From Escherichia phage UP19: a stretch of DNA of 64,000 bases. The position numbers were made by a program, and so were the translations under genes. Each line of letters opens with the position of its first letter. The stretch's first letter is position 1. The notes below the pieces were generated by a model. That model was given only the letters and a program-made list of their open reading frames with translations. It ran no database searches and was not told the origin of the DNA. This document shows positions 18,403-28,932 of this stretch, one piece after another. Where the stretch lies: the sequence record OX638288. One strand, written 5' to 3'.

Positions 18403-19356
18403 TTATAACAACCTGGATATTCCATTATTAATAGCACGCCCACCAAACGTATTAACCAATCCGGTCAATCCACTAGAAGCTCCTGAAAGTCTACTTAATT
18501 TAGCTACAGAAGAACTTAATGAGTTACTCTCACTTATGCCTGCTACGCCTTTAAGGACTTTATCTTCCAGCCATTCATAAGCAGCTTGTTTACCAACTGC
18601 ACCCGTCTGTACACTTCTATAAGCAAATGTAACATCAAACGAAGCAATCTGGTTATCGCCATCATAAGATAATTCCGGCGATGAAACACCTACAGGAACA
18701 CATCCATTAAGCATTACTACTGTATGTGGCAATCCATTACGAGAATGAAGGTTGACTTGGATGTCAGCTTCAACATCTTCAGGCAATGCTCTTAATTGTG
18801 TAATAGGGTCTTGGACACTATTGACCCAATCATTAAAAGCACGGTAGTTGGCAGCTTCAGAATCCATGCGGAAGCTTAATACCAATGGAGAATATTCTCT
18901 TCCGGTAATTTTGATATTAGGCGAGTTGTGGTTCAAATCCATTTCATAGTTCAAAGTATTATCCGGAATTTTAACGGCATGGACTAAAAGACCCGCCGTA
19001 GGATAAGCCATATTGAAAAAATCCATCAGATATGTACCTACTTCAAACTCACCTAGTAAGCTCTGCACAACCCTGGATGACATAGCTCCAATCAGATATT
19101 TACTTATACCTGACTTACGAATCAACTTCTGAGTGCCCGCTGTCACTAATGTCGTAACACCTTGGGTTAAATCTCCTTGGGTAATTCCAAACAAATCGGT
19201 ATTCAACGGGATATTGTTAAATAAAGCTCCACCGAACTGGTCGAGGAGCGCTTGGGATTTAGAAGAAGGAACTGTAGCAAATACTACACTAAACAGGTTA
19301 TTCCTTTGTAGGTCAATATTAATTGCCTGGTTTTGAAATTCTTGTAAAGTATACAT
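18403..19356 (-). CDS. 54: baseplate tail-tube initiator (gp54)
   Basis: 317 aa (T4 gp54 is 320 aa); T4 order alt-54-48-29-28-27-51. Confidence 0.85.
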   Translation of the reverse strand: MYTLQEFQNQAINIDLQRNNLFSVVFATVPSSKSQALLDQFGGALFNNIPLNTDLFGITQGDLTQGVTTLVTAGTQKLIRKSGISKYLIGAMSSRVVQSLLGEFEVGTYLMDFFNMAYPTAGLLVHAVKIPDNTLNYEMDLNHNSPNIKITGREYSPLVLSFRMDSEAANYRAFNDWVNSVQDPITQLRALPEDVEADIQVNLHSRNGLPHTVVMLNGCVPVGVSSPELSYDGDNQIASFDVTFAYRSVQTGAVGKQAAYEWLEDKVLKGVAGISESNSLSSSVAKLSRLSGASSGLTGLVNTFGGRAINNGISRLL

Positions 19357-20450
19357 TAGAATCCTTCCGTATAAAGTGAGCCACGGTTCAAAGTAATGAT
19401 TTCACGGAAAGTAACTTCTAAACTAAACGTGGATGGTAAGTTAGGAGCAATAGCCAAACCATTAAAATGTCCATCAGGAGTTTTATCAAATCGTATACTT
19501 TGGATTTGGCACGGTCCAAAAATATCTTCACGTCCGTCATATGAACTTGTATTACCAAAGTTTCGAATATACCAAATAGTTGGGTTACTTACCACAATAA
19601 CATTAGAAAGGAAACTTGTGATACCTTCTCCTAATAGCTTACCATCAAAGTTATCAATAGCTTCTTTTTTAAACGTGGAACGGTACCATGTATCAATCTT
19701 CTCTTTTAATTCGCCGGCGAAGGCAGAGTTGCCTGTTTCACCATAAGAATAGTAATTAAAGATTTCATATATTTTAATAATCTGAATAAGGTCTTGGGCG
19801 TTTCTAGGGGTCATTTCCCAAGTGAATACCTTAGTACGGTTATCTGGCCCTGCATACATACTACGTGCGGTTGTGTATATTTGCTCACCAGAATCGGCCA
19901 TTACACCGTTAGTTACAGATTCCAATGCACCAAATACAGCAGTACTGGCAACGTTACTCAAAATACCCGTAGCAGTACCACCACCTTTAGTGATTAATGA
20001 TTCGCCTACATCATTAAATTTATGCGTAACCGAATCAACATCAGATTTAGAACGTGGGAGCAAAATATTGGCTAAAGCCTGGCTATCAAATTTAACTCCT
20101 TTAGAGTTGTTACTAAACAGGTTTTTAACAGCACTGAACCCACCGGTATTACCGGTAAGTTTACCTGCAGCTTTTGAAAACTTTTTAGTCATTTGGCTCG
20201 AGCGGTCGTTACGTAAATCAGGTGATACGCGAGAGCTAAAATTATATGCCGTAAAAAGTAATCCATTTTTATATAAATCGTTTAACACCATATCTGTAGA
20301 GGTATCATTGCCCGAGGCCCTTTCGGCTGGATACTGGGCAGTTACCGTAGTTTGGGCCGGTTTAGCTTTAGATTGGCCTGCGGAGGTTTTTGAACCTCCT
20401 TTAAATAAGGAGGCTACGTCAATGTCAATTTCTTTTACTTTCATTATCAA
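19356..20450 (-). CDS. 48: baseplate tail-tube cap (gp48)
   Basis: 364 aa (T4 gp48 is 364 aa); gene order. Confidence 0.85.
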   Translation of the reverse strand: MIMKVKEIDIDVASLFKGGSKTSAGQSKAKPAQTTVTAQYPAERASGNDTSTDMVLNDLYKNGLLFTAYNFSSRVSPDLRNDRSSQMTKKFSKAAGKLTGNTGGFSAVKNLFSNNSKGVKFDSQALANILLPRSKSDVDSVTHKFNDVGESLITKGGGTATGILSNVASTAVFGALESVTNGVMADSGEQIYTTARSMYAGPDNRTKVFTWEMTPRNAQDLIQIIKIYEIFNYYSYGETGNSAFAGELKEKIDTWYRSTFKKEAIDNFDGKLLGEGITSFLSNVIVVSNPTIWYIRNFGNTSSYDGREDIFGPCQIQSIRFDKTPDGHFNGLAIAPNLPSTFSLEVTFREIITLNRGSLYTEGF

Positions 20451-20452
20451 TC

Positions 20453-22189
20453 CTAATTAACTTTAGTAGCTTGACGCATACCAGGAGCAGGAGTGGAAGA
20501 CTGAGGCGGCAAATTATAACTAGTCTTACTCGTTTTCTTGATATTCGTTTGCTGATTTATTTGAGTTGGAGCTTGCTGACTATATTTAGCATTTTCCTTT
20601 GCTCTCATTTGCTCGTCAACCTTTTTAACCTGGGTATTTTCAGGAGATTCCGCTACAGAAGCAGGTTTAGGCTTTTCAGCTTCGTTAAATTTCTCTAAAG
20701 ATTTATTCATCTTATCAAGTAATTGCTGGATATTAAGGTCTTTCGGTGCTCCACCTTTAGCCATAATAGGGTCAGCTAATTGTTTCTCGATATCCGCTTT
20801 AAATGCCTTAGCATTTTCGATATCTTTAGAATCGGGCTTCATTATATTATCGGCGGTTTGGGTTAAACGGATAATATCAGCCTGAGCTTTATCACGTTTC
20901 TTAAAATACTCTAAACGTTCTTCTTCAGGGAGGTCACGGAAGCTTGTGTCAATTCCGCCAGCGCGTAATTGGTCGGCTTGTTCTTTAGTAAGGTTACCGT
21001 ATTTCTCTGCCTGGTTTATAAGCTCAGGTTTACCCTTATACTTCTTATTCATTTTCTCGGCTGTTTCTAAAGCCTCAGCTGAACGTCTATCATGGTACTT
21101 GGCTACTTTAGTTTGGTCTTCGTCATCTAAAGTGGCTCCGGTATTTTGTTGATACGACATTAAAGCGGATGCCTCTACGTTTTCAGCCAAATCACCCATA
21201 CCAGGTATTTTACTTAAAATAGCAGAAATCAATTTAGAAATACCGAGCATTAACAGTTGTGCCATATTTTTGGTAAGATTAACCATACCGCGAATAATAG
21301 CTTCTGCCAGACCTAGCCAATTTCTTTCGCTAAACATAGCTTCAGCATTCTTGGCCCAGGTCATTAAGCCTTCAAGTACGGGTCCCCACTCTTTAAACTT
21401 ATCGTTAAATTTTTTCCATCCTTCATTAAATTGGTCCATGAAATATTGGAAGTATACACGAATAGCATCTATACCAAATATTAAAAGGGCTAGGCCTGCA
21501 GCCAGTTTAGCGGCTTCTGCAGCAGCAGTAATAGTATACTTAAAAAGCATACCTGAAATTCTATCAGCCACGCCCACAGAGGCTTTAAATCCTTTTTCGG
21601 TTATTTTTGTAAGGGCTTCGATTTTATCAGAAAGAGAAGACTTGTCACCTTCTTTACCTTCATTTGAATTTTTAGGAGGTTCTGGTACAAATTCAGCGTC
21701 AGGTTTATTATCTTCAGGCGGAAGAATATCTTCAATAACAGCAGGAACTTTAGGAGTTTCAGCCTTAGGTTCTTCAGGAATAGAGTCTTCAATAACCTTT
21801 AACGAGCTCCCTTCCGGCGGAATAGAAATACCAGAGAATTTAGCCTCCAACATATTAGAAAGCTTATTAATCTTTTCGTTTAATGCATCCGAAAGAGCTT
21901 TAGATTGTTGGGTTTGTTCTGATATAGCTTCGGCCGTTAATTCTGTTCCGGCGACAACATCTTGAACACTTTTATCTACTCGGTCTATAGAATTAATAAT
22001 CTGATTAGACTTTGTTTCAACAACTTCAGAGAGCAATTCAGACGCCGCCTGGGTTTCTGATAAAGCTTCTGTTATATTTCCTAATTCGTCGTTCTGGGTT
22101 TGGGCTAGCGCCTCAGCACGACGCTGAGGAGCCATTTCTTCAATCAGTTTATTGCGACGAAAACTATTCTGATTAGATTCATTCTTCAT
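20453..22189 (-). CDS. 29: baseplate hub / tail length tape-measure protein (gp29)
   Basis: 578 aa (T4 gp29 is 590 aa); extended, Ala/Glu/Lys-rich N-terminal half; gene order. Confidence 0.85.
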   Translation of the reverse strand: MKNESNQNSFRRNKLIEEMAPQRRAEALAQTQNDELGNITEALSETQAASELLSEVVETKSNQIINSIDRVDKSVQDVVAGTELTAEAISEQTQQSKALSDALNEKINKLSNMLEAKFSGISIPPEGSSLKVIEDSIPEEPKAETPKVPAVIEDILPPEDNKPDAEFVPEPPKNSNEGKEGDKSSLSDKIEALTKITEKGFKASVGVADRISGMLFKYTITAAAEAAKLAAGLALLIFGIDAIRVYFQYFMDQFNEGWKKFNDKFKEWGPVLEGLMTWAKNAEAMFSERNWLGLAEAIIRGMVNLTKNMAQLLMLGISKLISAILSKIPGMGDLAENVEASALMSYQQNTGATLDDEDQTKVAKYHDRRSAEALETAEKMNKKYKGKPELINQAEKYGNLTKEQADQLRAGGIDTSFRDLPEEERLEYFKKRDKAQADIIRLTQTADNIMKPDSKDIENAKAFKADIEKQLADPIMAKGGAPKDLNIQQLLDKMNKSLEKFNEAEKPKPASVAESPENTQVKKVDEQMRAKENAKYSQQAPTQINQQTNIKKTSKTSYNLPPQSSTPAPGMRQATKVN

Positions 22190-22700
22190 TTAAGATATCC
22201 ATGATTTTAAGCAATCCTTTAATAGGACCATTAGGACCAGGGATAGCTACAGTAGAAGTTATATCGTCGGCCCATGTAGCAACAAAGGCAGGCATATCCA
22301 GAAAATCTGGTACATCGTCCCCAAGGTAAAGGGATTGTAGTACACTATCAACAGGACCAAATGTTTGGAACGGTTCATGTGATTTAAATTTAAATGTTTT
22401 ACCTTGGAATTGGAATTCAAGACGTTGGCAGATATAAAGGTCATTTAGGTTATACGTAAACCCGTCCTTAGTTACCTTTTCTTTCAACCGTCCGTTGAAT
22501 TCTAAAAGATGAAGAGCAGCGAAATCGGTTTCGGCTGCAGTTAAACCCTTATAAATGGAACTCATTAATATATGAAGAGCTTTATAAGGGTCTTTTTCAT
22601 CTTTGACCAATTTTTGGTGTTTAAGACCCAATTTAGGAATGGAAATCTCTTTATCACCCAGCGTTATTTTCTTGATCGGGAGTATCAGTTTTAAGTTCAT
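22179..22700 (-). CDS. 28: baseplate hub distal subunit (gp28)
   Basis: 173 aa from ATG 22700 (T4 gp28 is 177 aa); track start 22742 would give 187 aa; start uncertain. Confidence 0.7.
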
Positions 22701-23823
22701 TTTTAACCTTCGGTGGCTCTTCAATCTTAATAGGCTTACCATTAGTAAACATATAAAGGTTTGTAATTGATGTATTGTTACTCACTTCATGAATAACTTC
22801 GTCTACATAAAAATCGTATTGGAATTGGTTTTTAGGGTCATAAAAATTAATCTTATCACCCGGAGTTAATTCAAAGTTCCCGTATACCTTGCAATGAGCG
22901 TACCCATCATACTGGGCCATTGTAACTAATCTATCAGCTTCTTCAAATCCATTTCGGTAGGTATAATCGGAATAACCACCAGAGCGAGAAACCAGTATAC
23001 TGTTTTGCCCATCACCAAAAGTAATTCGTGTGGCGTTTTTATCTAGGAACGAATGGGCGTATACTGTAGCATTTTCGTAAGGTTTTCGGGTATGTTGGTT
23101 AGCTTTAGTTAACCACTCAAAATCAAATGCAATAGGAGTATCCATATCTTGGACATATTGGCCTATTAAACGAGGCTCACCAACCACAAAATTGATAGGC
23201 TCCTGATTAACCATAAATTCGTAGTCCATAATAGAAATACCATCTATATCTTCCCAGACAAATACAAATTTATCGGATTCAACAGCCATACCAACTTCTC
23301 GTACAAATTCCATATATCTGTCCATAGAATCACACCACGGAACATTAGGAACATAAACGTTTATCCCGTTCAATGGAGGTGCAAGGAGTGGTCGGTCCTG
23401 GTAAATAACACCAATCATTTCTGTTAATGTTTCTTGAACACTAGGGAAGAACATACGTCCGAATTTAAGATTTTCTAAAAAGTGGATAGGGGCGAGTTGT
23501 ATTGTTATGATATTGTCGCCCTTAGAATCCACCCCTACTGCAAAGTGCTTACTTCCGTAAATTCTTGATTGGGTACGTTCCGAGTTGGCATTCTTAACAG
23601 AAACTTGGATAATTTGTTCACCATCCATTTTAGTATGAAGGTTTTTTGCATCATAAAACTGGAGCAATCCTTCATTATTACCATAAAGACCATCTCGCAT
23701 TGTTAGGGTAGTAAATGTTGCGCCTAGTTCAACAAAACGATGCTCTAACCAGGCGTCATAATCTTCGTAAAGGCGTATACTAATATTAGGAAAGCCTTCA
23801 CGCTGCATAGTTTTTGAACTCAT
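22654..23823 (-). CDS. 27: baseplate hub subunit (gp27)
   Basis: 389 aa (T4 gp27 is 391 aa); gene order. Confidence 0.85.
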
Positions 23824-24572
23824 TTCTTAAGGTCCTTTTCAACCAAAGACAAAGCAATACCGCGTTCGATTGGAATCATCTGCATAATGCTTTCTAATGA
23901 ATAATTGTTCTTTACCAGTAAATGGTTTATTTGGTAAAATAAAAATATCTCATCCGGATTGACTATAAGTTTAAACACTTCTAAAATGTCAGTGTATGTA
24001 ATTGTTCTACGATTACAGCATCCATATTTGAGCTCGAAATGAATAGGGCTTGTTTGTTTGACTATATCCTCTAAAGTAGATAAGTCTATAGCATCTATTA
24101 CGGCTAACTGGTCTTCTTCAGAAAGGTCTGTCCAGTTATAAACCCCATTTTCATCTTCTACTGACTGGATGGTATTCAAAATCAATTCAGATTTATCATG
24201 ATATTCTATTTCAGGGAATTTGAATGTCAATTTCAAGCCAGCCACTTCAATTGTAGGGTTATCTAACTTGGTCTGCTTCAAATTGAATAAAACTTGTCTA
24301 TCCTTTTCACACTTACTGCAAGTGTATCGGATAGGAATTTTGGTCTTGCCGAGAGATGACGTATACAATTCAATAAACATGTATGGACGCCATGACACAG
24401 GGTACTCACCAAAGTATTCTTCCAGTAACTCATCTAAAATTTGTTTTTGCTCTTCAGGTGATTTATTATTCATATCATTTCGAATCAAAATAAAATCACG
24501 ATAATCAGCTACTGTAAAAGGTTTAAATCGGTGGACTCCATCAGGCATTTCGCAACGTACTATATTAGCCAT
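23820..24572 (-). CDS. 51: baseplate hub assembly catalyst (gp51)
   Basis: 250 aa from ATG 24572 with SD AGAGGA (T4 gp51 is 249 aa); track start 24623 is a non-ATG codon. Confidence 0.8.
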
Positions 24573-24592
24573 AAGGTATCCTCTTATTGATG

Positions 24593-24604
24593 TATTTATA
24601 AATA
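24593..24604. promoter_or_regulatory. palindromic bidirectional late promoter TATTTATAAATA (TATAAATA on both strands) for divergent genes 51 and 26
   Basis: Perfect 12-bp palindrome containing the T4 late-promoter octamer in both orientations; 21 nt from gene 51 ATG and 19 nt from gene 26 ATG. Confidence 0.7.
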
Positions 24605-24622
24605 AGCTTAAAGGAGAAGACA

Positions 24623-25246
24623 ATGAATTATACTTTTGACGTAAAAATTAAAAACAAGACCATAAAATGCAGAGCATTTACCCTCAGAGAGTATAAGGAC
24701 TTGCTCCAAGCTAAATTAGAAGACAGAATAGAGCCCTTTATCAATGAACTCATTTTGAATTGCACAGATGCTCGTGGTTTAAACAAGCAAGAATCTGAGC
24801 TTCTGGTGATAAACCTGTGGGCTCATTCATTAGCTGAAGTGAATATAGAACGTGAGTGGGTTTGTAGTTGCGGTCGCTCACAGGTGGTCCCTATGACGTT
24901 AACTCGCGCTACATTAGGTAAAGAGCCTGATATTATTAAGGACTTCGGCAACTTTAAAATAGTGTTCAGATATCCTAAGCTCTTTGAAGACAAAAATAGG
25001 GCTATGATGGTTGCAGGATGTATCGATTATATTTTAACTTCTGCAGGCGAAAAGCTTCTTCTTTCTGATTTAAGTGATGCGGAACTAGACGACCTTTATT
25101 CTGTGATAACAGAAAAAGATGTAAAAGAAGTTTATGATGCTCTAGTCGCCCCTAAGCCTATTTTGGCCATACCTATTTCTTGTGAATGTGGTGAGCATAC
25201 CGTCCACGTTATTGAGGGACTTAAAGAGTTCTTTAAGGTGATGTAA
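24623..25246 (+). CDS. 26: baseplate hub subunit (gp26)
   Basis: 207 aa (T4 gp26 is 208 aa); divergent from gene 51. Confidence 0.8.
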   Translation: MNYTFDVKIKNKTIKCRAFTLREYKDLLQAKLEDRIEPFINELILNCTDARGLNKQESELLVINLWAHSLAEVNIEREWVCSCGRSQVVPMTLTRATLGKEPDIIKDFGNFKIVFRYPKLFEDKNRAMMVAGCIDYILTSAGEKLLLSDLSDAELDDLYSVITEKDVKEVYDALVAPKPILAIPISCECGEHTVHVIEGLKEFFKVM

Positions 25247-25635
25247 TGAATATCGATAAAATGTATTCAGATTTGGACCCTGAAATGAGGACGTCTTGGA
25301 ATAGAGACGTCGCTAAAGCTACAGGGGCCCGTGCAGTAAAAAATAGTTTGTTAGGCATTATTACTACTCGTAAGGGTTCTCGCCCTTTTATGCCTGAATT
25401 TGGTTGTGATATCAGTAATCAACTATTTGAAAATATTACCCCATTAATCACGGATACCATTAAGCGTAATATAGTTTCCGCCGTGCGGAACTTCGAACCC
25501 AGAATTTCTGCTCTTGCCGTAGGAGTTACCCCTGTTTATGATGACAACTCTATTATAGTAACCGTCCAGTTTAGTATTGTTGATGACCCGGATACATTAG
25601 AGCAAATTAGAATCCAGCTCTCACAGAGTGGTTAA
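25246..25635 (+). CDS. 25: baseplate wedge subunit (gp25)
   Basis: 129 aa (T4 gp25 is 132 aa); ATGA-coupled to gene 26. Confidence 0.85.
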   Translation: MNIDKMYSDLDPEMRTSWNRDVAKATGARAVKNSLLGIITTRKGSRPFMPEFGCDISNQLFENITPLITDTIKRNIVSAVRNFEPRISALAVGVTPVYDDNSIIVTVQFSIVDDPDTLEQIRIQLSQSG

Positions 25636-25637
25636 TT

Positions 25638-25662
25638 GCTGTTCAAATGAATAGTGTATAAT
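25638..25662 (+). promoter_or_regulatory. candidate middle promoter for uvsY (MotA-box-like TGCTGTT 25638-25644, -10 TATAAT 25657-25662)
   Basis: Imperfect MotA box 12 nt upstream of a consensus -10. Confidence 0.4.
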
Positions 25663-25693
25663 GGTCCTATGGTTATTACACAGGAAACATGCG

Positions 25694-26131
25694 ATGAGTA
25701 AAGAGATTGAATATAAATTGGAATCATTCCAAGATGCATTGGATGAAGATTTAAAGATTGATGGGACTCGTTTACAGTATGAAGTACAGAACAACGTTTT
25801 GCTGCACAGCAAATGGCTAAGGCTGTATACGAATTGTAAGAAAGAGATAATGCGATTAGAAATCCAGAAAAAGACCTCTCTTAAGAAGCGTTTAGATTTC
25901 TACACGGGACGTGGAGAGCCTGGTGATGAGGTTTGTATGGACCAATACGAGAAGTCAGAATTAAAGACCGTAATGGCCGCAGATTCTAGCGTGATTAAAA
26001 TAGATACATCAATCCAGTATTGGGCTTTATTACAGGACTTTTGTAGTTCAGCACTGGATGCAGTCAAAGCTAGAGGGTTCTCGTTAAAGAATATGTTGGA
26101 GCTCAGGAAATTTGAAGCAGGTGAAAAATGA
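25694..26131 (+). CDS. uvsY: recombination mediator protein UvsY
   Basis: 145 aa from ATG 25694; ..TRLQYEVQNNVLLHSKWLRLY.. and ..YEKSELKTVMAADSSVIKIDTSIQYW.. matching T4 UvsY. Confidence 0.85.
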   Translation: MSKEIEYKLESFQDALDEDLKIDGTRLQYEVQNNVLLHSKWLRLYTNCKKEIMRLEIQKKTSLKKRLDFYTGRGEPGDEVCMDQYEKSELKTVMAADSSVIKIDTSIQYWALLQDFCSSALDAVKARGFSLKNMLELRKFEAGEK

Positions 26132-26483: not shown

Positions 26484-26711
26484 TTAGAACTCTTCTTGCT
26501 CTTCGTCATCCATAGATTCCAATTCAGCTCGTTTACCTGCTAAGGCATCACGAACACTGATATCGTCCGAATCTCGAAGTTCAGCTTCTTTACTACGAGT
26601 TTTGTAATACTTTTCCAATTCCTTCAAACCGTCCATGGTTTGACAAGAACTAATTTTAGACATGAAGCTCTCGATAGAGGCTTCATAGATAACTTCTTTA
26701 AAGGACTTCAT
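26484..26711 (-). CDS. small helical protein, UvsW.1-like by position
   Basis: 75 aa, acidic C-terminus; sits where UvsW.1 follows uvsW in T4 but separated from uvsW by the HNH gene. Confidence 0.45.
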   Translation of the reverse strand: MKSFKEVIYEASIESFMSKISSCQTMDGLKELEKYYKTRSKEAELRDSDDISVRDALAGKRAELESMDDEEQEEF

Positions 26712-27403
26712 AAATCCACCTGTTTCATTAAATTTCTGATTTTGTGACGAGAAAGACCCGTGGCTTCGGAAGCTTGTTTCATCGAGCCATATTCAACACC
26801 ATTTATAGTAACCTTTTTAGCTGCTGGGTTTTTAGATGGGTCTTTATATCTTTCTTTAGCTTTATCTGAAATTTTCTTAGAAGCTTCTGGCGTATGATTT
26901 TTACCATACATGCCGTTGCCAGCACCGGAATTTCTTTCAGATATAGCTTGACATTGTTCTTGCATGTATTTATAAGGATTCGCTTTTTTAGTTGCGGATA
27001 TTTTATCGCCCCATAAAATAGGCCTACCTTTAAATAAATTGCTCATGTATTCTTTATGGGCTTCAGTGTGGTGCTTACCATAAAATGGATTTCCTTCGCC
27101 AGTCTGAAGAATTGCCAATTGTCTACGTTCCCACCCGTATGATTTACTAAATTGTCTTTTATGGGTCCTGGAACTCATACCCATAGAAATAACAGCTTTT
27201 ATGAGACCGTAGTTATTTGGATAAATTTTAGCCAGTAATTTATGAGCTATAAAATGTTCTTCTGGGGTAAGGCGTACTCTATTTTCCCGAGTATCGGGCC
27301 CGCCCATACAAGTCGGGATTATATGATGGGACTCGGTGTACCCGAGAGGTTTAGAAGCCTTTCGGCTTCTAATTAAATTGTCATAAATCTTTTGATAATT
27401 CAA
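26708..27403 (-). CDS. HNH homing endonuclease with NUMOD3-like DNA-binding repeats
   Basis: 231 aa; HNH core ..ESHHIIPTCMGGPDTRENRVRLTPEEHFIAHKL..; repeated GxxxYGKxHTxEx(K)KIS motifs; ATGA-coupled on both sides. Confidence 0.85.
   Translation of the reverse strand: MNYQKIYDNLIRSRKASKPLGYTESHHIIPTCMGGPDTRENRVRLTPEEHFIAHKLLAKIYPNNYGLIKAVISMGMSSRTHKRQFSKSYGWERRQLAILQTGEGNPFYGKHHTEAHKEYMSNLFKGRPILWGDKISATKKANPYKYMQEQCQAISERNSGAGNGMYGKNHTPEASKKISDKAKERYKDPSKNPAAKKVTINGVEYGSMKQASEATGLSRHKIRNLMKQVDL
26708..27403 (-). mobile_element. free-standing HNH homing endonuclease gene inserted between uvsW and uvsW.1-like ORF
   Basis: Same ORF as above; intergenic insertion typical of T4-type homing endonuclease genes. 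Confidence 0.7.
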
Positions 27404-28910: not shown

Positions 28911-28932
28911 TATAAATATAACTATATTTATA
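28911..28932. promoter_or_regulatory. pair of face-to-face divergent late promoters: TATAAATA (plus, 28911-28918, for inh/hoc) and TATTTATA (minus-strand TATAAATA, 28925-28932, for uvsW)
   Basis: Both octamers exact; arranged so that the two 5' leaders would overlap. Confidence 0.6.

What the first reader, a model, noticed from the sequence alone, without database searches (positions are those of the whole stretch)
24593..24604. Perfectly palindromic late promoter serving divergent baseplate genes 51 and 26
TATTTATAAATA reads as the late octamer TATAAATA on both strands, 21 and 19 nt from the two divergent start codons. One 12-bp element therefore appears to drive both hub-assembly operons, which would couple their expression.
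Basis: seen in the sequence. Interest (0 to 1): 0.4.

Follow-up and report, generated by a model that had tools for sequence, protein, structure and literature searches.

The report
Overlapping divergent T4-type late promoters
The 12-bp palindrome between baseplate genes 51 and 26 is two back-to-back copies of the T4-type late promoter box sharing four bases, an arrangement present letter for letter in phage T4 and most of its relatives, so it is real and functional-looking but already known.

Summary
TATTTATAAATA lies at 24593-24604, once in the window (0.06 expected). It sits in the 50-bp gap between gene 51 (- strand, ATG 24572) and gene 26 (+ strand, ATG 24623) of a JS98/JS10-like Dhakavirus. 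It holds TATAAATA on both strands, the two boxes sharing TATA. Phage T4 has the identical 12-mer in its own 50-bp 26/51 gap. One Tequatrovirus GenBank record annotates two overlapping 8-bp promoters there. From memory, the T4 pair was mapped in 1989 (Scarlato et al., Virology 171:475). The 12-mer is identical in 46 of 54 related IMG/VR loci (29 of 35 distinct gaps), while the bases beside it are nearly random. Ac42 and Morganella MP1 keep both octamers in another palindrome (TATAAATATTTATA), so the octamers are what is selected. Predicted starts are A24610 (+) and A24587 (-), 23 bp apart; these are inferred, not measured. The two open complexes would use the same DNA, so occupancy should be mutually exclusive, and sliding-clamp activation depends on strand. 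The operons therefore share timing, not firing. Extra: gp51 and gp26 are paralogs, so the promoters lie on the axis of an old inverted duplication. Verdict: already known; low interest.

The parts
24593..24604 (.). 12-bp perfect palindrome TATTTATAAATA, made of two late-promoter octamers overlapping by 4 bp (TATA, 24597-24600)
   Evidence: identical in T4 and in 46/54 related IMG/VR loci
24597..24604 (+). P26: late-promoter box TATAAATA (positions -13..-6) for the gene 26-25(-uvsY) unit
   Evidence: octamer position -13..-6 from PMC2988020 and PMC1524935; 18 nt to ATG 24623
24593..24600 (-). P51: late-promoter box TATAAATA (positions -13..-6) for the gene 51-27-28-29-48-54 cluster
   Evidence: 20 nt to ATG 24572; no other octamer or ATAAATA heptamer on the - strand below 24593 in the window, which includes the whole cluster
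24610..24610 (+). Predicted transcription start of the gene 26 late mRNA (A), giving a 13-nt leader. Inferred, not measured.
   Evidence: Sixth base after the octamer (octamer = -13..-6, PMC2988020). This position is A in 26 of 30 distinct orthologous gaps.
24587..24587 (-). Predicted transcription start of the gene 51 late mRNA (A on the - strand), giving a 15-nt leader. Inferred, not measured.
   Evidence: Same rule as above. The mirror position is A on the - strand in 26 of 30 distinct gaps.
24611..24616 (+). Shine-Dalgarno AAGGAG of gene 26, 6 nt before the ATG
   Evidence: a purine-rich block is conserved at this place
24579..24585 (-). Shine-Dalgarno AAGAGGA of gene 51
   Evidence: reverse complement of tcctctt
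23820..24572 (-). Gene 51 (baseplate hub assembly protein, 250 aa; PF12322)
24623..25246 (+). Gene 26 (baseplate hub protein, 207 aa; PF12322, a paralog of gp51)
18403..23823 (-). Downstream genes 27, 28, 29, 48 and 54, with no further consensus late box; probably co-transcribed from P51
   Evidence: Genes 27 and 28 are named from the JS10 annotation. Genes 29, 48 and 54 are named by T4 gene order and ORF size only.
25246..26131 (+). Genes 25 and uvsY downstream of gene 26 on the + strand

Best explanation
The palindrome is a pair of back-to-back, gp55-dependent T4-type late promoters, P51 and P26. Each is an exact TATAAATA box at -13..-6. They lie on opposite strands and overlap by their first four bases, which is possible because TATA is its own reverse complement. 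Late in infection, host RNA polymerase carrying the phage sigma factor gp55 (with gp33 and the gp45 sliding clamp) would open the DNA at one box or the other. It would then start at about A24610, reading rightward into genes 26-25, or at about A24587, reading leftward into genes 51-27-28-29-48-54. Each mRNA would have a 13-15-nt leader that begins almost at the Shine-Dalgarno sequence. The shared 4 bp are -13..-10 of both promoters, and each polymerase footprint covers the other site, so one DNA molecule should host only one open complex at a time. The clamp activates only the promoter whose non-transcribed strand carried the loading nick, so the two directions are fed by oppositely oriented clamps. 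Shown here: the sequence, its position, its identity to T4, its conservation, and the lack of alternative consensus boxes. Inferred: the start sites, gp55 dependence in this phage, operon extents and mutual exclusion.
For: There is an exact consensus on both strands at 18 and 20 nt from the start codons. The 12-mer occurs once against 0.06 expected. The window is a Dhakavirus, 98.7% identical to JS10 across this locus, and JS10 encodes gp55. T4 has the same 12-mer in its 50-bp gene 26/51 gap. Record MT682714 annotates two overlapping 8-bp promoters at exactly these positions. The exact 12-mer is present in 14 of 18 sampled loci, spanning 10 named genera plus two unclassified phages. It is also present in 46 of 54 IMG/VR loci, or 29 of 35 distinct gaps, in phages whose gp26 is as little as 33-37% identical to the nearest reference gp26 and 33-34% identical to the window's. 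Bases next to the 12-mer carry only 0.07-0.47 bit, and the predicted +1 is A in 87% of gaps on each side. Ac42 and MP1 keep both octamers in another overlap. The octamer is at -13..-6 (PMC2988020, PMC1524935). The bubble spans -12..+2 and gp55 reads the non-template strand (PMC7892883). [quoted passage not shown] From memory, Scarlato et al. 1989 (Virology 171:475) mapped overlapping divergent late promoters in the T4 baseplate cluster.
Against: No transcript 5'-end data for this phage or for T4 could be read here. The T4 dRNA-seq start-site table of 10.1101/2024.04.04.588121 is not among the held supplements. The Scarlato paper is not in the library, so the claim that the T4 pair was mapped rests on my recollection. 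The T4 GenBank records carry no promoter features at this site. RB49-like phages have a 1-nt insertion that spoils the gene 26 octamer. Tulanevirus phages of Aeromonas have TATTTAAATA, one mismatch on each strand. The exact arrangement is therefore not obligatory.
Confidence: 0.9

Rival explanations
1. Only one of the two octamers is a working promoter. The other is a by-product of AT-rich sequence, and the second operon is transcribed from elsewhere or by read-through.
For: A second octamer needs only 4 extra bases (TATT) next to the first. RB49-like phages keep only the gene 51 octamer intact. Not all 50 listed T4 late sites are proven active (PMC2988020).
Against: All 12 positions are unchanged in 30 distinct orthologous gaps while the adjacent positions are nearly random. 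Ac42 and MP1 rearranged the site yet kept both octamers. No other consensus box lies upstream of either gene. Both sides have A at the predicted +1, followed by a Shine-Dalgarno sequence.
Confidence: 0.05
2. The 12-bp palindrome is mainly an operator for a dimeric DNA-binding protein, for example an AT-site binder such as DsbA, that regulates both operons. Its resemblance to the promoter box would then be secondary.
For: Perfect palindromes are typical of dimer binding sites. DsbA has been reported to bind AT-rich sites overlapping two late promoters, though weakly (PMC2988020).
Against: The palindrome follows automatically from two overlapping inverted octamers. Ac42 and MP1 changed the palindrome to TATAAATATTTATA while keeping the octamers, and RB49 breaks the symmetry with an insertion. 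Conservation stops exactly at the octamer edges. No candidate protein was identified.
Confidence: 0.03
3. It is a chance AT-rich palindrome, or a sigma-70 (early/middle) promoter, with no late-promoter role.
For: The window is 60% A+T. The pattern CTCC..TATTTATAAATA..GGAG also turns up in 60 of the 80 returned IMG/VR loci with no detectable gp26/gp51 homolog beside it, in contigs of many kinds.
Against: Only 0.06 copies are expected per window. The site sits in a 50-bp gap and is conserved with orthologous genes across genera. The sigma-70 scan finds no -35/-10 pair at the site.
Confidence: 0.02

Closest known systems
Phage T4 late promoters of genes 26 and 51 (overlapping, divergent; Scarlato et al. 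1989, Virology 171:475, cited from memory; annotated in GenBank MT682714)
   Same: Same genes on both sides, the same 50-bp gap length and the identical 12-bp sequence TATTTATAAATA. The gene order 28-27-51 | 26-25-uvsY is the same.
   Different: Only the flanks differ: the leaders and Shine-Dalgarno contexts diverge, and gp26 is 48% identical. This is an orthologous copy in a Dhakavirus, not a new element.
Generic T4-type late promoter (TATAAATA at -13..-6, recognised by gp55, activated by gp33 and the gp45 clamp)
   Same: There is an exact octamer and no conserved -35 region. A short leader runs to a late structural gene. The lineage encodes gp55 (PMC2988020).
   Different: Two such promoters share 4 bp on opposite strands, so they cannot be occupied independently.
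Bacterial bidirectional promoters that arise from -10 element symmetry (Warman et al., bioRxiv 10.1101/2020.01.31.928960; NAR 2026, PMC12825309)
   Same: Boxes of the -10 type on opposite strands overlap and base-pair, and the divergent starts lie close together. The predicted 23-bp offset is one of the preferred spacings they list (29, 23, 18, 12, 10, 7). One polymerase binding excludes the other.
   Different: The sigma factor is phage gp55, not sigma-70. The box is 8 bp and no -35 element is used. Activation comes from a strand-oriented sliding clamp. The commonest bacterial spacing is 18 bp, not 23.
Second divergent late-promoter pair in this window (inh | uvsW, 28911-28932)
   Same: Two exact TATAAATA boxes lie on opposite strands in a 55-bp gap between divergent genes.
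   Different: The boxes face each other across a 6-bp spacer, so each lies in the other's leader. The predicted starts are only 5 bp apart.

Membership tests
T4-type late promoter | Match to the 8-bp consensus TATAAATA | tested here: met
   Exact match on both strands
T4-type late promoter | Sits just upstream of a late (virion) gene, with the box about one helical turn before the start site | tested here: met
   The boxes lie 18 and 20 nt before the ATGs of baseplate genes 26 and 51. The start sites themselves are only predicted.
T4-type late promoter | No conserved -35 element or upstream sequence | tested here: met
   Flanking positions carry 0.07-0.47 bit in 30 distinct orthologous gaps. 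No sigma-70 -35/-10 pair is found.
T4-type late promoter | The phage encodes the late sigma factor gp55 | tested here: met
   Gene 55 is not in the window, but JS10, which is 98.7% identical across this locus, has it annotated.
T4-type late promoter | Transcription depends on gp55, gp33, gp45 and DNA replication, and starts about 6 nt after the box | not testable with these tools
   This needs RNA 5'-end mapping in wild-type and gene 55-defective infections.
Ortholog of the T4 P26/P51 overlapping promoter pair | Lies in the gap between divergent genes 26 and 51 | tested here: met
Ortholog of the T4 P26/P51 overlapping promoter pair | Same sequence and the same overlap register as in T4 | tested here: met
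   T4 has the identical 12-mer in a 50-bp gap. Promoter features in MT682714 fall on the same bases.
Bidirectional promoter by -10 symmetry (Warman et al.) | Boxes of the -10 type on opposite strands overlap or base-pair | tested here: met
   4-bp overlap at 24597-24600
Bidirectional promoter by -10 symmetry (Warman et al.) | Divergent start sites measured 7-29 bp apart | not testable with these tools
   A 23-bp separation (24587 / 24610) is predicted from the -13..-6 rule. No start-site data were available.
Bidirectional promoter by -10 symmetry (Warman et al.) | Recognition by the host housekeeping sigma factor | tested here: inconclusive
   No sigma-70-type -35/-10 pair lies at the site. 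By homology the box is read by gp55. It works like this class but is not a typical member.

The most novel reading that the evidence does not exclude
The overlap may be more than compaction. It could be a competition switch on the symmetry axis of an ancient inverted duplication, since gp51 and gp26 are paralogs. Only one polymerase can sit on the shared TATA, and the gp45 clamp activates only the promoter whose non-transcribed strand carried the nick. The ratio of 51-27-28-29-48-54 transcripts to 26-25 transcripts would then be set by which strand is discontinuous, that is, by the direction in which replication forks pass the locus. That would tie hub-protein stoichiometry to replication geometry.
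Probability: 0.12. Interest if true: 0.45.

Novelty: already known. Interest (0 to 1): 0.12.

Why it matters
The finding correctly identifies the start signals of two essential baseplate-hub operons, but it repeats a textbook T4 arrangement in a close relative. The modest added value is comparative. The 12-mer is among the most conserved non-coding sites of the locus across Straboviridae. Two lineages switched to another allowed overlap of the same boxes. The flanking genes are paralogs. Together these make the site a clean natural case for testing polymerase competition and clamp polarity at a phage bidirectional promoter.

Tried and rejected
- Prior art: four literature searches for the Scarlato 1989 paper or any paper citing it found nothing in the held library. 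Miller et al. 2003 (PMC150520) is not held. The prior-art citation therefore rests on memory.
- T4 annotation: the T4 records NC_000866 and AF158101 carry no promoter features at this site. Only MT682714 does.
- T4 start-site data: a T4 dRNA-seq study exists (10.1101/2024.04.04.588121), but its start-site table is not among the held supplements.
- Locus search: the search for related loci with a 12-sequence gp26 alignment failed because no stretch was conserved enough. A gp25 alignment worked instead.
- Sigma-70 reading: the scan found no such promoter at the site.
- Cruciform or hairpin role: not pursued. The element is a 12-bp all-A/T palindrome with no loop, and it lies outside both predicted transcripts.
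- Extended DNA symmetry: the repeat finder found no inverted repeat flanking the palindrome. The gp51/gp26 duplication survives only at the protein level.
- IMG/VR pattern scan: 20 of the 80 returned loci were T4-type gene 51/26 loci and 60 had no detectable gp26/gp51 homolog beside the 12-mer. Eight neighbouring proteins from four of those 60 loci had mixed Pfam hits (SLT, CsgF, DUF6267) or none. This gave no coherent second family and was not pursued.

Full report
**What is there**

The window reads ...CAT AAGGTATCCTCTTATTGATG TATTTATAAATA AGCTTAAAGGAGAAGACA ATG.... The 12-mer at 24593-24604 is a perfect palindrome. TATAAATA lies on the + strand at 24597-24604 and on the - strand at 24593-24600, and the two copies share TATA at 24597-24600. 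The 12-mer occurs once in 64 kb against 0.06 expected. The octamer occurs 16 times against 7.8 expected, with 0 of 100 shuffles reaching 16. Most copies lie 14-48 nt upstream of a long ORF on the same strand. That corresponds to 20 and 18 intervening bases.

**Context**

The region is 98.7-98.8% identical to Escherichia phages MN04 and JS10 (Dhakavirus, T4-type Straboviridae). The JS10 annotation gives genes 28, 27 and 51 on the - strand and genes 26, 25 and uvsY on the + strand, with the same start codons. Pfam confirms these identities: PF12322 for gp51 and gp26, GPW_gp25 for gp25, and Phage-tail_1/2 for gp27. JS10 encodes gp55, the late sigma factor. No other TATAAATA octamer or ATAAATA heptamer lies on the - strand anywhere below 24593 in the window. 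That stretch includes the whole cluster down to the ORF at 18403-19356, called gene 54 from T4 gene order. On the + strand, the nearest such box upstream of gene 26 is more than 10 kb away. The site is therefore the only consensus late signal for both gene sets.

**Comparison with T4 and relatives**

T4 has a 50-bp gap between genes 26 and 51 that reads CAT AGATGCTCCTTTTATTC TATTTATAAATA TGATAAATAAAGGAGCTAAAT ATG. The 12-mer is the same although gp26 is only 48% identical. The Tequatrovirus record MT682714 annotates two 8-bp 'promoter' features on opposite strands that fall exactly on these octamers.

- In a spread sample of annotated phages, 14 of 18 loci have the exact 12-mer. They span Tequatrovirus, Dhakavirus, Gaprivervirus, Kanagawavirus, Karamvirus, Gelderlandvirus, Muldoonvirus, Bragavirus, Lasallevirus and two unclassified phages (one of Klebsiella, one of Acinetobacter).
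- Among IMG/VR loci found through gp25, 46 of 54 have it, which is 29 of 35 distinct gaps.
- When 30 distinct gaps are anchored on the 12-mer, the four bases on either side carry only 0.07-0.47 bit.
- The sixth base after each octamer, the predicted +1, is A in 87% of gaps on each side, and Shine-Dalgarno blocks follow.
- The gaps are 45-67 bp long, with 15-24 nt to the gene 51 start codon and 16-33 nt to the gene 26 start codon.

**Informative exceptions**

Acinetobacter phage Ac42 and Morganella phage MP1 carry TATAAATATTTATA instead. Both octamers are kept but overlap by 2 bp in the opposite order. RB49-like phages have TATTTATAAAATA, a 1-nt insertion that leaves only the gene 51 box exact. 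Tulanevirus phages of Aeromonas have TATTTAAATA, which reads TTTAAATA on both strands. What persists is one late box per strand, not the particular 12-mer. This argues against a dimeric-operator reading and for two promoters.

**Mechanism**

In T4 the box occupies -13..-6 (PMC2988020; PMC1524935). The bubble spans -12..+2, and gp55 reads flipped non-template bases at -12, -9 and -8 (PMC7892883). Applying that here predicts starts at A24610 (+) and A24587 (-). They are 23 bp apart, with leaders of 13 and 15 nt that begin almost at the Shine-Dalgarno sequences. These starts are inferred.

The shared TATA is -13..-10 of both promoters, and the A at -12 of one lies in the template strand of the other's bubble. 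The upstream DNA that gp33 and gp45 occupy for one promoter is the transcribed side of the other. One DNA molecule should therefore hold only one open complex at a time. [quoted passage not shown] P26 and P51 should therefore be activated by oppositely oriented clamps. The two operons share the late class, but 'coupling' in the sense of joint firing is not supported. The 23-bp offset is one of the symmetric spacings listed for bacterial bidirectional promoters (10.1101/2020.01.31.928960).

**Novelty**

From my own knowledge, Scarlato, Storlazzi, Gargano and Cascino (Virology 171:475, 1989) described 'overlapping promoters direct divergent transcription of the base plate gene cluster' in T4. 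The paper is not in the held library, so I could not re-read it. Independently of that, the identity to T4 and the public annotation show the feature is known. The window holds an orthologous copy.

**Side findings**

- gp51 and gp26 are paralogs. Both match PF12322 end to end. Pairwise BLASTP gives E = 3e-5 in the window and 2e-6 in T4. A profile-profile comparison gives probability 99.3% and E = 1.3e-20 over 192 colinear columns starting at residue 5 of both proteins. gp51 adds about 47 C-terminal residues. The promoter pair therefore lies on the axis of an ancient inverted duplication. No DNA-level symmetry beyond the promoter survives.
- A second divergent late pair lies at 28911-28932 between inh and uvsW.

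**Limits**

I had no RNA 5'-end data for this phage or for T4. The conservation counts come from related genomes, so they are not independent events. The anchored profile includes only gaps that contain the 12-mer.

Noticed in passing
window 23820-24572 (-) and 24623-25246 (+): gp51 and gp26, the two genes flanking the palindrome, are paralogs. Both match Pfam PF12322 end to end, and hhalign gives probability 99.3% and E = 1.3e-20, colinear from residue 5 of both. gp51 has an extra ~47-aa C-terminal tail. The locus looks like an ancient inverted duplication with the promoter pair on its axis. No paper discussing this was found in the held library.
   Followed up: partly
window 28911-28932: There is a second divergent late-promoter pair, TATAAATA-TAACTA-TATTTATA, in the 55-bp gap between uvsW (-, ATG 28896) and inh (+, ATG 28952). 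The boxes face each other, so each lies in the other's leader, and the predicted starts (28924 + / 28919 -) are 5 bp apart. In T4 the homing endonuclease gene segE sits between these two genes.
   Followed up: partly
L034 (Acinetobacter phage Ac42) and L066 (Morganella phage MP1), gene 51/26 gap: These two unrelated lineages replaced TATTTATAAATA with the other perfect overlap of the same boxes, TATAAATATTTATA. The predicted starts are 13 bp apart instead of 23.
   Followed up: partly
L011, L067, L068, L071 (RB49-like) and L015, L016, L069, L070, L072 (Aeromonas Tulanevirus and relatives): RB49-like phages have a 1-nt insertion (TATTTATAAAATA) and a 70-bp gap that contains ACTAAATA, which may be a variant gene 26 promoter. 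The Aeromonas phages have the 10-bp palindrome TATTTAAATA, which reads TTTAAATA on both strands.
   Followed up: no
L014 / L054 (Proteus phage phiP4-3), gene 51/26 gap: Almost the whole 45-bp gap is an inverted repeat (AGTGTCTCCT...TATTTATAAATA...AGGAGACACT), so the symmetry reaches the Shine-Dalgarno sequences and start codons.
   Followed up: no
L101-L179 (IMG/VR loci from the pattern scan): 60 of the 80 returned loci matching CTCC..TATTTATAAATA..GGAG have no gp26/gp51 homolog beside the 12-mer. In 34 of the 56 that could be scored, the 12-mer lies between divergent ORFs. Two of these contigs have 58-62% G+C (L149, L151), where an all-A/T 12-mer is unexpected. Neighbouring proteins are mixed (SLT transglycosylase, CsgF-like, DUF6267, small membrane proteins). 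These may be sigma-70 bidirectional promoters or chance matches.
   Followed up: partly
window 26708-27403 (-): A 231-aa ORF lies between uvsW and the small uvsY-side ORFs in the window. By coordinate mapping, the corresponding stretch of JS10 is annotated as part of a 498-aa uvsW. T4 has segE beside uvsW. I did not examine this ORF.
   Followed up: no
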